From the NCBI RefSeq assembly GCF_009914755.1, contig NC_060944.1: a stretch of DNA of 64,000 nt; one strand, given 5' to 3'. This document shows positions 15,639 through 37,770 of the stretch, piece after piece. Positions within the stretch are counted from its first letter, which is position 1; every line of letters begins with the position of its first letter. The stretch is from the human T2T-CHM13v2.0 reference genome, Homo sapiens. The notes under the pieces were generated by a model, which had not been told where the DNA came from, did no database searches, and worked only from the letters and a program-made list of their open reading frames with translations. The translations under genes and the position numbers were made by a program.

Positions 15639-15746
15639 CTGCTGGTGGTGGGTGCTGGGAAACGTATACTTTACAGAGTGAGGAGGATAATGACTTTGTT
15701 CTGTGCTGAATGCTCCTTGGTTGGGAGGGTAACCTGAACTTGACAT
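15639..15746 (-). CDS. NCOR1P1: Coding part of the NCOR1 exon 2 homolog (36 codons); full exon 15639-15816
   Basis: ATG at 15746-15744; donor CAG|GTAAGG at 15638; acceptor tttcccatcctgtttag| at 15817, 70 nt upstream of the ATG. Confidence 0.85.
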
Positions 15747-16362
15747 TATCAGTAAAGAAGTCCTCACCAGACTGTGAGATCAATGCCAATAAACAATCAT
15801 GTTTCTAGGAAAACATCTAAACAGGATGGGAAAAAAATAGAATTAATAAGAACTAAAACACCAAGTGTACTTCTAATAAATTATAACTATAGCTACATAA
15901 ATAAAACCACAATTACCAGTAAAAGCTTCCTCTCAAGTATTTACTTAATAAAAGTTACCAAGGTTTGAAAACATTAATGTGTCATTTTTTATATTTAAAA
16001 TAGGTTAATATGTGACAAATAATATAATTAGCTATATAAAGTAAAAACAGTATATAAAAACAGCATAATATCTGGCACATAGTAACTGCTCAGTAAATAC
16101 CTTTCTACAAATGTCTGAGGAATATAAAGACAAAAATACATGGTTTTAAATTTGGGAGTTGATAAGTCAATTGTGAAAAGAATTCAAGAGTAGTTTTAAG
16201 GTAAGCATTTGTGCAGAGGAAGTATTGTCTTTATTAAATAATTCTGAAGCAAGGATGATAAAATACTAAGTTTTGTAATCACAGATGGTAGGTAGATGGA
16301 CATTTGTTATGTTACTCTTTGCATGCTTCTATGGAACTGAAATAGCAGATAAAGAAAAAGAA

Positions 16363-16670
16363 GGCCAGAAGCGGTGGCTCCTCCTGTAATCCCCGCACTC
16401 TAGGAGGCTGAGGCAGGCGGATCACTTGAGGTCAGGGGTTCGAGACCAGCCTGGCCAACATGGTGAAACTTCTTTTCTACTAAAAATACAAAAATTAGCC
16501 AGGCATGGTGACATGCACCTGTAATCCCAGCTACTTGGGAGGCTGAGACAGGAGAATCGCTGGAGCCTGGGAGGCGGAGTTTGCCGTGAGCTGAGATCAT
16601 GCCATTGCACACCAGCCAGAGCAACAGAGTGAGACTCCATCTCAAAAAAGAAAAAGAAAACAAAGAAAAA
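16363..16670 (+). mobile_element. AluS
   Basis: Dimeric Alu with A-rich tail. Confidence 0.9.
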
Positions 16671-17565
16671 TAAAGCCATCTTCATTATAAAGTATATTCC
16701 TACTTGTCCACAATTCTAGATTAATTTGATTTGTCTGTCTTTTCTTGTGCCAATGCCACACTTTTCAAATTACTCTAGTATTACGAGGTTTCATATCCAG
16801 CAGGGCAAGTTTCACCTCACTGTGCTTTGTTGTTGCTGCTACTTTCACCACCTTCCCAGCTATTCTAGCACATTTTCTCTTACACACAAGCATCAGAGTC
16901 AGCTTGTCAGGTCCCAGAGAAATTCTGGATGAGAACACATAAATATTGAATTCACAGACTGACTAATGGGAGAACAGGTACCCTTATACGTCTGAGTACT
17001 CCAATCTTAAAACATGATTATCTATGTTTATGTTTCAGGATAACACAAATATTTATGTTATACATAATTAATATGGGAATATTTTACATACATGTGGTAG
17101 AGAATATTACACATATATAAAAATGTGTGCAATAATATATAATTTCTATCTTAATTATATATAAAACTCCCAAGACAAAAATTTTATATACACATATACA
17201 CATGTGCATGTGTGCACATACACTCTTACTTTAAGACCAGAGTTCTATTATTACCTAATTGGGTGGTTTTAAAAAATAGAATTTAAATATAAGATGAAAA
17301 TTATATAATTGTATACATAAAAATATAACAGATATAATTTTATTTACATAAAATCTCCACCCATTTAATACTTTATTAGTAAAGTTTTAATTTTCTTTCC
17401 ATCATTTCAAGGTATTTGGGAAGAGGGCAAATTCAAAAAATAATTCAGTATGACAAATTGATCAATTTCCCAGTTTTTATCAATATATTCTTTATCCAGT
17501 TAGGTTTAGAAAACAAAATTTTCTAAGGAATTGTCTTTCAATCTAACTTTAAAACAAAACTTATA

Positions 17566-18530
17566 GGCTGGCCACAGTGGCTCACACCTGTAATCCCAGC
17601 ACTTTGGGAAGTCAAGATCGGAGGATCCCCTAAGGCCAGGTGTTCAAGACCAGCCTGGGCAATGAAGCCAGACCTATCTCTACAAGAAAATTAAAATAAT
17701 AATAATTATTATTATTTAGGTGGCCAGGTGCAGTGGCTCATGCCTGTAGTCCCAGCACTTTGGGAGGCCGAGGCGGGCGGATCACGAGGTCAGGAGATCG
17801 AGACCATCCTGGCTAACACGGTGAAACCCCGTCTCTATTAAAAATACAAAAAAGTAGCCGGGCGTCATGGTGGGTGCCTGTAGTCCCAGCTACTCGGGAG
17901 ACTGAGGCAGGAGAATGGCATGAACCCGGGAGGTGGAGCTTGCAGTGAGCCGAGATCGGGCCACTGCACTCCAGCCTGGGTGACAGAGTGAGACTCTGTC
18001 TCAAAAAAAAAAAAAAAAAAAGAAAAGAAAAAAATAATTAGTCAGGCACGGCGGTACACACCCATGGTCCCAGCTACCTGGGAGGCTAAGGCAGGAGGAT
18101 CACTTGAGCCCAGGAGGTCAAGACTGCAGTGAGCCGTGATTGTGCCACTGCACTCCAGCCTGGGTGATACAATGAAAGTCTGACTCAAAAAATAAAAGAA
18201 AAAATGTATAGAAAGAACTTTAAGGCCAGGCGTGGTGGCTCACGCACTTTAGGAGGCCAATGCAGGCAGATCATGAGGTCAGGAGTTCAAGGCCAGCCTG
18301 GCCAACATGGTGAAACCCAGTCTCTACTAAAGATACAAAAAATTAGCCAGGCATGATGGCACATGCCTGTAAACCCAGCTACTCGGGAGGCTGAGTCAGG
18401 AGAATCACTTGAAGCTGGGGGGTGGGGGTTGCAGTGAGCTGAGATGGTGCCACTGCACTCCAGCCTGGGTGAGGGGTCCAGACTCCATCTCAAAAAAAAA
18501 AAACAAAAAACAAAAACAAAAAAAAAAACT
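17566..18530 (+). mobile_element. Alu cluster: AluJ with nested AluY (17721-18035), then AluS (18224-18530)
   Basis: AluJ left arm, complete AluY, AluJ right arm, then another Alu. Confidence 0.88.
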
Positions 18531-35088: not shown

Positions 35089-36569
35089 TTAACACAATTA
35101 TGAAAGCATAGCTTTCAAGTAACTAATTATACAACTGACTTTTTTCCTCATCTCTAAAACATAGTAAGGGATCAGTTATTTAAAAAATACAACAGTGACA
35201 ACTATTTTATTTTTAACTCAGTTTTGGTTTGTTAAGGCCCTTGCTTGGCATAAAAAAAAAACAGGAGGAGAAACAATAATACAAACATGAAATAGAAGCA
35301 ATAGCAAAAGAAAATGAAGAGGAACAAGAAAATGAGAAGAAAATACACAATGGAAGAAAGGAAAAGGAACAGGCGTGGGAATTAGAAGGCTCAGTATGAT
35401 ACTTTTTATCCCCTCCTCGATTCATAAAATTTGAGTAACTGCAAGAGTATTACAAGAGAAAACAAGCAAAAGTATACACAAATAGTCACCCCCTATATTT
35501 TGTTAAGAATGAGAGAATGCTGCCACTCACGCCTAGCTCAGGCACCAGCAGGAGGGCACACTCTAGAGATTTCAGGAGAAGAGGGAGGACTCCTCTTTGC
35601 CCTAGGTGTACCACCACCACTGCCACCGAGACCTTTGTTACAGCATCCACAGGTTCCTCCCCACCCCAGAACGGGATGGGCCCTGCAGTGTTCCTACTCC
35701 CCCGTCCCGGCCCCCAGACTTCCTACTGCTACCACCACTAGCGCCAATGCCAATACAACCAGTCACCCTCAACGTACCAGCCCACCCTACCAGGCTCCTA
35801 CCACCTGGCCCCCGTGGGTGCCCTCATACCACTCCAGTCGAGCTGCGGTCTCCATCTCCACCACCAACTGCATGAGGCAAGCTGCAGAGCCACGTCATCT
35901 GCTCGACCCTACCACAGGCGACTCCTCCTTCTCCTCCTTCAGCCTGGCTTGGAGCAGCTGGGCAGGCAAAGCCAGAAGATCCCAAAACAGGACTCAGGGA
36001 GTGGAACCGTTAGAGCCTCACCTTCTCATGCTGATGACTGGGTGTCAGGGATCAGTTTCATTGAAGGCACTCACACCCACCTTCCAAAGTCCAACCTCTT
36101 CTTCTGGCAAAAGCTGGCCAGGAACTGGGGCCTGGGGTGGGAGTGAGTGCCTTCACTGAAACCGGCCCCTGGCCAAGTCCAGCTGGCCAACAATTGCTGG
36201 GCCCACCAAGGCTGCCCTCCTCGCAGAGCCTGAGTAGGAGAAACTCAGACCCAGCCAGCCCTCCCCACCCAAGGGCTGGTTCCCATACCTGACACCTCCA
36301 CCCACAGTGCCCTGTACCCCACTTCCCCCATCATGCCCACTACTCCCTGCCTGGTAGTCCCAGGTGGTCTTCGCAACACAGAGCATGAGCACGGGGCAGG
36401 AAACCACAGTGGGTGTGGAGGCCCTGCCGTGCAATCTAGCTCGCATGGGAGAAAATCGCCTTCTAGAGTCTGGAGTCCAAGAAGAGGAGAACCATCCCTT
36501 ACTTGGAGGCTACCAGAAGAAGGAGGTCACTGCTGTCACTGCCGCTGCCACCTCCTCAGCTCGCCAACG

Positions 36570-37120
36570 CCGCTGGCAGTGTAGCCCCCATGGCACCCCT
36601 AATCTGCTCCCTGCCACTAGCAGTGTAGCCCATGGATAGCACATCCAACACACCCTACAGTTTCAGACAATGTAACCCCAATACCCCCCCAAAGCACTCC
36701 CCCCACACCTCAGGGAGCATACCACCCAATAGTGCCCACAATCTGACCCAGCCACGGGCAGTTCATCTCCTGATGGTGCACCCCCCAGTCACAGGCAGTG
36801 CAGCACCCAACAACGCCCCTAAACCACCCCCAACTGCCAGCATTGTAGCCCCAGATAACTCCACCCAACCCACCCCCTGCCGCAGGCAGTGCAGCAGAAG
36901 ATAGCACCCCTAATCCTTCACCAGCCGCCGGCAATACACGCTAGTGTACACAATCTGCCTCCCCCCACCACCCCTGCCACCACGGGCAGTATAGCCCCAG
37001 ATAGCCAGCCAACCTGCCCCACAGCCAGCAATGCAACACCAGAGAGTGCCCCCAACCAGACCACTGCCACAGGCAGGGTAGCCTCTAGCAGTGAGCCCCA
37101 ATAGGACACCCAACCCTTGC
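36570..37120 (+). repeat. Diverged C-rich minisatellite, ~44-bp unit, ~12 copies
   Basis: Recurrent gcagtgtagcccc(a)gatagc.cccccaacc motif at ~36576, 36620, 36668, 36758, 36795, 36840, 36886, 36931, 36986, 37028 and 37073. Confidence 0.8.
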
Positions 37121-37529
37121 CCCCAGAGGCGTACAGGGCAGGCACGGAAACTCACCTACCCCATCACATTTCTACCACTGTGGCTGAGCTGCAGTCTCCG
37201 ACATCACTGACAATCACAGCGAGGCGAGCCATGATGGCACAGGTTCCAGCCTCCAGCATGTGGCAGTGCCTCTTCCTTCTAGTTCTCCAGCCCAGCAGAA
37301 GCTCCTGCTGCCCACCGCCCTCCTACTGCTCTATCGCCACCACCAACCGTAGCGAGGTAGTGACCCAGGCTCCAGGCTCCAGGCTCCATCCATCCTCCAG
37401 CCTCCATCCATCTTCCAACCTCCAGCAGGTGGAAGGTTGCGGCCTCTTCCAGTCCTCTAAGCTGGGCACAGAGTAGCTCCTCCGCTCGACACAGAAGAGC
37501 CTGAAATGACCTGACATGACCTCAGCATA

Positions 37530-37770
37530 AGAGGTTATGCAAATGCAGTTCCTGGATTACATGTTCTGATTGGACAAGAAAAAAAAACCTCTAGGCCTAC
37601 TCTGATTGGACTTTATTTTCATGCTGTGATTGGTTGTGTTAAGACTTGCTCTTATCCAATCAGAACATGATCATAAAGCCCAATCAGAGTAAGCCTGGAG
37701 GTTTTTTTCTCATCCAATCAAAACATGCAGTGCAGGAACCTCCATAGGCATAACCGCAGTATATAAATGA
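37530..37770. promoter_or_regulatory. Palindromic bidirectional Pol II promoter-like element (NF-Y x6, octamer, TATA)
   Basis: ATGCAAAT 37537-44; ATTGG at 37569, 37605, 37629; CCAAT at 37656, 37680, 37714; TATATAAA 37760-67. The boxes are symmetric about ~37644. Confidence 0.72.

What the first reader, a model, noticed from the sequence alone, without database searches (positions are those of the whole stretch)
15639..37530. Possible promoter capture: repeat-derived first exon replacing the missing NCOR1 exon 1
Seen: the NCOR1 copy has an intact exon-2 acceptor (15817) but no recognisable CpG-island exon 1. The left arm of the palindromic promoter points down the minus strand toward it, and a consensus donor TAG|GTGAGT lies at 37156/37155, defining a candidate ~350-nt first exon (~37520-37156). 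Inference: a chimeric transcript (repeat-derived exon to NCOR1 exon 2 to exon 5) could express the 102-aa ORF under new NF-Y/Oct control. An upstream ATG ORF (37517-37323) could repress its translation.
Basis: inference. Interest (0 to 1): 0.75.

Follow-up and report, generated by a model that had tools for sequence, protein, structure and literature searches.

The report
BAGE-type promoter fused to NCOR1 fragment
A repeated human promoter of the same kind that lies in front of the cancer/testis gene BAGE is fused, in seven genome copies, to a piece of the NCOR1 gene that lost its first exon; it likely yields at most weak non-coding RNA, and no spliced transcript or protein has been shown.

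Summary
The sequence observations hold. The acceptor ends at 15817, the donor TAG|GTGAGT is at 37156/37155, both ORFs exist, and NCOR1's CpG island is absent. The fusion is old and shared: NCOR1 intron 1 breaks inside an Alu at 32895-32897 and joins a duplication block, with the same arrangement in 6 sister copies (chr7, 13, 14, 17 twice, 21). The promoter is homologous (75%) and co-oriented with the BAGE promoter, probably the REP522 repeat, so promoter capture of this kind is already known. The donor 9-mer is invariant in 19 of 19 other copies examined. The left arm lacks the TATA box. The uORF's ATG is absent from all 6 sisters, and 11 upstream ATGs precede the 102-aa ORF. That ORF is broken in 4 of 6 sisters and ends in intron read-through. 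No transcript data could be tested. Verdict: real architecture, a new member of a known kind; direct junction about 0.3; functional protein at most 0.04.

The parts
37302..37960 (.). Palindromic BAGE-type promoter element (probably REP522; name from papers, not tested against a repeat library)
   Evidence: Arm-to-arm alignment 220 of 290 bases; 634 identical of 843 ungapped columns with the BAGE-family locus C21:7.88 Mb, same orientation
37569..37718 (.). Six CCAAT boxes, three per arm (ATTGG at 37569, 37605, 37629; CCAAT at 37656, 37680, 37714)
   Evidence: largely kept in 19 other copies; BAGE locus also has the core set
37537..37544 (+). Octamer ATGCAAAT, left arm only
   Evidence: kept in 10 of 19 other copies; absent from the BAGE locus
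37760..37767 (+). TATA box, right arm only; the mirror position on the left arm lacks it
37156..37505 (-). Candidate first exon A; 5' end inferred by symmetry with the right-arm TATA (+30)
   Evidence: inference; no transcript data
37150..37158 (-). Donor TAG|GTGAGT
   Evidence: identical in 19 of 19 other copies; weakened to GTGCGC in the BAGE locus, which uses a donor further upstream
37323..37517 (-). 64-aa upstream ORF, private to this copy among the NCOR1-bearing ones
   Evidence: ATG in 0 of 6 sisters and 2 of 19 copies overall; no Pfam match
35802..35957 (-). Exon-like unit B, homologous to the BAGE coding exon and to a CCDC144NL exon
   Evidence: Pfam PF08180 25.7 bits, cut-off 20.9, on 35978-35898; 95% identity to chimpanzee CCDC144NL; both splice ends match the protein's junctions
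33860..34760 (-). Exon-like unit C (terminal CCDC144NL-type exon) with AATAAA at 33865; 3' end inferred
   Evidence: orangutan CCDC144NL isoform continues from B into C; signal kept in 4 of 4 copies compared
32913..32918 (-). Second AATAAA, about 20 nt before the fusion point
   Evidence: kept in 2 of 4 copies compared
32895..32897 (.). Fusion point: 3-nt microhomology inside an Alu of NCOR1 intron 1
   Evidence: crossed by 6 of 6 sisters, while copies without NCOR1 stop here
15817..32897 (-). Remnant of NCOR1 intron 1 (parent C17:16,096,9xx-16,112,538) with a chr20-only L1 piece at about 18504-20102
15639..15816 (-). NCOR1 exon-2 copy with intact acceptor and donor; main ATG at 15746
13153..13929 (.). 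Region of the shared deletion that removed the NCOR1 exons between 2 and 5 (a chr20-only L1 piece sits here)
   Evidence: full-length relatives continue differently after exon 2
5191..5391 (-). NCOR1 exon-5 copy (to 5209) plus intron read-through to the stop; encodes part of the GPS2-interacting domain
   Evidence: Pfam PF15784 positions 2-58 of 92; PDB 2L5G chain B residues 2-34 of 42; no exon-6 copy in the genome search

Best explanation
A duplicated block carrying a BAGE-type palindromic CCAAT promoter is fused into intron 1 of a partial NCOR1 copy in place of NCOR1's own first exon, an arrangement shared by seven copies, and it likely gives only weak germ-cell or tumour non-coding RNA. Shown: one break inside an Alu (3-nt microhomology) about 4.5 kb short of NCOR1's CpG island; loss of the middle exons and of exon 6; spread to chr7, 13, 14, 17, 20 and 21. 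Inferred: the left arm is normally methylated like BAGE. When derepressed it would start near 37505, use the conserved 37155 donor and mostly splice into the element's own exons B and C, ending at 33865 or 32918. With 11 to 15 upstream ATGs, such RNA would rarely make the 102-aa peptide.
For: Homology map and break. Six sisters have both parts 18.7-19.7 kb apart in the same orientation and cross the junction. BAGE locus has the same promoter and orientation, and its exon 1 plus exon 2 give a 39-aa BAGE protein. Exons B and C match BAGE and CCDC144NL. Donor invariant. Leader ATG counts. ORF broken in 4 of 6 sisters. BAGE loci are methylated and silent in normal tissue (PMC3757347). REP522 promoters are activated in cancer (PMC4896275).
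Against: No RNA evidence of any kind was available. Acceptors B and C both failed my crude acceptor filter, while the NCOR1 exon-2 acceptor passed along with 12 other sites in between. Pyrimidine counts are B 13, C 15 and exon 2 15 of 17. BAGE's own acceptor and donor are not kept in this copy. So skipping straight to exon 2 is possible. Support for B and C rests on database protein models of ape CCDC144NL, where they follow a different upstream exon. RefSeq models nothing at 37.5 kb (hub annotation).
Confidence: 0.55

Rival explanations
1. One reading: exon A is spliced directly to NCOR1 exon 2 and exon 5 as the main product, giving NCOR1P1 a new NF-Y/Oct promoter.
For: Strong donor, invariant in 19 of 19 copies. 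Exon-2 acceptor and donor intact in all 7 copies. Intron length of 21 kb is close to the parent's exon 2 to CpG-island distance. Acceptors B and C are not strong. RefSeq supports an exon 2 to exon 5 splice with an incomplete 5' end (hub annotation).
Against: Exons B and C and two AATAAA signals intervene. In BAGE, exon 1 joins the B-type exon first. The left arm has no TATA. No protein with an exon-A-derived extension was found (weak test). Some direct junction may still exist as a minor form (about 0.3).
Confidence: 0.15
2. The neighbourhood is inert. The chr20 element is silent on its left arm, the fusion is a neutral by-product of pericentromeric duplication, and the NCOR1P1 RNA fragment starts elsewhere (inside the retained intron 1 or by read-through).
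For: No RefSeq model at the element (hub annotation). CpG-depleted left arm, observed/expected 0.19-0.29, as expected after long methylation. NCOR1P names are absent from the supplements of a CRISPRi pseudogene screen and of a RAMPAGE start-site atlas. The chr20 copy is 3.9% diverged on its own branch.
Against: All six CCAAT boxes, the octamer and the donor are intact here. The homologous arm lies in front of the BAGE coding exons. The family is reported as cancer-activated promoters. The two supplements cover selected loci only.
Confidence: 0.25

Closest known systems
BAGE family (juxtacentromeric cancer/testis genes with duplicated MLL3/KMT2C pieces)
   Same: Homologous palindromic CCAAT promoter in the same orientation (75%). 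Homologous second exon (Pfam PF08180). Repeat promoter placed before a duplicated gene fragment and multiplied near centromeres (MLL3 duplication: PMC4041455 passage).
   Different: The captured gene is NCOR1. BAGE's exon-1 donor and exon-2 acceptor are not kept here, so no BAGE peptide; a different donor (37155) is intact. BAGE transcripts are documented; this one is not.
REP522 repeat promoters
   Same: Largely palindromic, multi-copy, and found at the BAGE locus (PMC4896275 abstract; PMC3560060 passage).
   Different: No repeat library was on hand to confirm the name. The described size is about 1.8 kb; the arms I aligned span 0.66 kb within a GC-rich stretch of about 2.5 kb.
CCDC144NL locus (17p11.2; element copy at C17:20.81 Mb)
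   Same: Same block at about 94% identity; exons B and C are its annotated exons in ape protein models.
   Different: There the upstream exons come from a CCDC144-type gene and no NCOR1 follows. That the right arm starts CCDC144NL-AS1 is my recall and inference, not tested.
NCOR1P1 / C20orf191 (RefSeq NR_003678.1)
   Same: Same two exons and the same 102-aa ORF.
   Different: The annotation begins inside exon 2 and has no first exon; its 3' end at 5136 has no nearby AATAAA or ATTAAA (next at 2337).

Membership tests
BAGE-type promoter/gene-fragment chimera | Promoter homologous to BAGE's and pointing the same way | tested here: met
   634 of 843 ungapped columns identical; same CCAAT palindrome
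BAGE-type promoter/gene-fragment chimera | Fused upstream of a duplicated gene fragment lacking its own first exon, in several pericentromeric copies | tested here: met
BAGE-type promoter/gene-fragment chimera | Spliced transcript from the element into the captured exons, with cancer/testis expression | not testable with these tools
   No RNA, CAGE or junction data available
BAGE gene family proper | BAGE peptide ORF with its exon-1 donor and exon-2 acceptor; MLL3-derived 3' part | tested here: not met
   Both BAGE splice sites are changed in the window; the 3' part is NCOR1
REP522 | Largely palindromic interspersed repeat near centromeres, present at BAGE | tested here: met
   descriptions
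REP522 | Match to the Repbase/Dfam REP522 consensus | not testable with these tools
   No repeat library on hand
Functional protein-coding duplicate of NCOR1 | ORF kept across copies, proper last exon, accessible start codon | tested here: not met
   Stops in 4 of 6 sisters; C-terminus is intron read-through, the same length as the parent read the same way; no exon 6; 11 upstream ATGs

The most novel reading that the evidence does not exclude
A hominoid family of seven REP522-driven NCOR1 chimeras is switched on in germ cells and tumours. The three copies with an open frame (chr20 and two on chr17) make a microprotein holding most of NCOR1's GPS2-binding helix, which titrates GPS2 away from the NCOR/HDAC3 complex.
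Probability: 0.04. Interest if true: 0.75.

Novelty: new member of a known kind. Interest (0 to 1): 0.3.

Why it matters
If transcribed, this would be a second BAGE-like case in which one repeat promoter adopted a fragment of a chromatin-regulator gene, with seven copies available to test how splice sites are rewired after such a fusion. It would also complete the 5' end of an annotated pseudogene. The seven 95-97% identical exon copies are a mapping hazard for variant calls in NCOR1 and NCOR1P1. As it stands it is an ordinary pericentromeric duplication with a plausible, unshown transcript.

Tried and rejected
Alu-Alu recombination at the fusion: rejected, only the NCOR1 side is Alu. Retrocopy origin: rejected, introns are retained and no poly(A) tail lies at the junction although an AATAAA sits 20 nt before it. 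A conserved regulatory uORF: rejected. A chr20-specific event: rejected. C17:20.81 Mb as the simple donor of the block: not supported as it stands, because it nests inside the clade of NCOR1-bearing copies (gene conversion or a later replacement is possible). Protein search for an exon-A-derived peptide: 0 of 366 candidates scored. Search with the exon-2 frame: 16 hits; none of the 8 retrieved shows an element-derived N-terminus. The last 20 residues of chimpanzee CCDC144NL isoform 2 were not found in the window or four loci. Rfam: 0 matches. Supplement searches for NCOR1P start sites: 0 hits. The Cancer Research 2016 REP522 paper and Grunau 2006 are not held. Only parts of the chr13, chr14 and chr21 copies were read (element and exons), so their introns and exact junction bases were not aligned.
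Full report
Observation. The palindrome is far above chance (score 173 against at most 34 in 100 shuffles), with three CCAAT boxes per arm and one octamer. The TATA box lies on the right arm only and is missing from the mirror position of the left arm.

What was lost from NCOR1. The window follows the parent locus (C17:16.10-16.11 Mb) from 13929 to 32897 and then stops. The parent's CpG island starts about 4.5 kb further on and has no match in the window. The exon-5 region maps 29 kb further down the parent, and a search with the next parent exon found only the parent and one distant locus on C12. 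Full-length relatives confirm that other exons normally follow exon 2. The break lies inside an Alu, with a 3-nt microhomology (32895-32897) to a block that is not Alu at that point.

One old event, seven copies. The exon-2 search gave 8 full-length hits: the window, the parent and six sisters on C7, C13, C14, C17 (two) and C21. Each sister has the palindromic element 18.7-19.7 kb upstream in the same orientation. All 6 match across the junction, whereas element copies without NCOR1 stop at it. The junction bases are in the same place in the 3 sisters aligned. Intron-1 divergence is 5.4-6.2% from the parent and 4.5-4.8% between chr20 and three sisters; by recalled primate rates that is roughly 20-25 million years (inference). 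In a tree of the 20 best element copies, the 7 NCOR1-bearing ones form a starred group of 8 with the C17:20.8 Mb copy nested inside. One origin therefore rests on the shared junction rather than on the tree.

What the element is. It has 109 matches in the genome (40 of 83 candidates scored). Sequence 1.5 kb down its left arm matches Pfam BAGE above the cut-off, and 3 of the 11 genomic BAGE matches lie within DNA matches to this stretch. At a BAGE-family locus (C21:7.88 Mb) the same palindromic CCAAT promoter lies in the same orientation (634 of 843 ungapped columns identical), and its first donor joined to its acceptor gives a 39-aa BAGE protein. So the left arm points in the BAGE direction. 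Papers tie this to REP522: the BAGE locus contains a large REP522 region and is H3K9me3-marked in liver (PMC3560060, one passage). REP522 is about 1.8 kb, largely palindromic and enriched among cancer-activated promoters (PMC4896275, meeting-abstract passage). It is upregulated at the 8-cell stage (PMC6545021, passages) and enriched in lncRNA exons (bioRxiv 10.1101/189753, one passage). BAGE loci are methylated and silent in normal tissue and expressed in tumours and male germ cells (PMC3757347, part 1 of 3; PMC3084872, passages), though hypomethylation alone did not switch them on in ICF cells. MLL3 is duplicated with BAGE (PMC4041455, passages). That BAGE transcripts splice into MLL3 exons is my recall; the Ruault papers were seen only as references. 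The name REP522 could not be tested against a library.

The donor 9-mer is identical in 19 of 19 other copies (82-94% overall identity), one of only 11 invariant 9-mers among 2237. The copies are related, so these are not 19 independent tests. All six CCAAT boxes and the octamer are intact here. Exon-2 splice sites are kept in all 7 copies, with a weaker GAG acceptor on C7.

Against its simple form. Two exon-like units lie between the donor and NCOR1. B (35957-35802) is 95% identical in protein to chimpanzee CCDC144NL, and an orangutan isoform runs from B into C (from 34760) at the predicted junction. AATAAA signals follow at 33865 (kept in 4 of 4 copies compared) and 32918 (2 of 4). BAGE too passes through the B-type exon. 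However, B and C failed my crude acceptor filter while the exon-2 acceptor passed, and BAGE's own splice sites are changed here, so direct skipping remains possible. The uORF's ATG is present in 0 of 6 sisters and lies about 12 nt upstream of the start site inferred by symmetry. With a start at 37505 the leader has 11 upstream ATGs (4 in strong context), or 15 with exon B, none overlapping the main ATG.

The 102-aa ORF. It is exon 2 plus exon 5 in frame, ending five codons into intron 5; the parent read the same way also gives 102 aa. It has premature stops in 4 of 6 sisters (C7, C13, C14, C21) and is 117 aa in both C17 sisters. The exon-5 part covers positions 2-58 of 92 of the GPS2-interacting domain and residues 2-34 of 42 of the NCOR2 chain in PDB 2L5G, which is the basis of the novel case. 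Nothing here shows that it is translated.

In print. Searches for NCOR1P1 (9 papers), C20orf191 (2), NCOR1P2-4 or 'NCOR1 pseudogene' (4), REP522 (14 papers, 13 listed) and combined terms showed no description of an upstream exon or of this fusion. I saw listings only for most of these, plus passages of PMC11233666, PMC6925957, PMC11353194 and PMC6664583 (no coordinates). Supplements of PMC12963367 and PMC8381491 had no NCOR1P entry. The main REP522 paper (Cancer Research 2016) is not held; its tables may list this promoter, and GENCODE long-read models could not be consulted.

Verdict. The architecture is real, old and of the BAGE kind. Estimates: element is a BAGE/REP522-type promoter 0.9; some left-arm transcription at this copy 0.55; the direct 37156 to 15816 junction exists at any level 0.3; it is the main product 0.15; a functional peptide at most 0.04. 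Interest 0.3.

Noticed in passing
window 32913-32897 (minus): The fusion point lies about 20 nt after an AATAAA, where RNA cleavage would occur, but there is no poly(A) tail; the U-rich antisense Alu now follows the signal. Probably coincidence.
   Followed up: partly
window 41000-46000: The block to the right of the element is a duplication of C4:33.8-33.97 Mb (92-94%), present in all six sisters and at C17:20.82 and 23.26 Mb. Right-arm, TATA-driven transcripts would run into it; no GTRAG donor until 38482.
   Followed up: partly
G000:C20:25817970-25818562: A second chr20 match at 97% to window 4900-5497 (exon 5 and downstream), on the opposite strand, with no exon-2 hit there.
   Followed up: no
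L002 (G000:C17:20.81 Mb): The CCDC144NL-type copy nests among NCOR1-bearing copies in the tree, suggesting gene conversion among 17p copies or a later replacement.
   Followed up: no
window 18504-20102, 13153-13929, 33990-34300: Insertions absent from the three sisters aligned: two L1 pieces and a CpG-rich Alu with a target-site-like direct repeat.
   Followed up: partly
window 32900-33900: Interspersed repeat with 73-79% matches at unrelated loci (C8, C2, C11, C13, C16, C23); family not determined.
   Followed up: no
window 37960-39180: G/A-rich degenerate repeat tract on the right flank (GC skew 0.75).
   Followed up: no
window 1-1400: GC-richer sequence at the left end, where an NCOR1 exon-6 copy is not found; origin not traced.
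   Followed up: no
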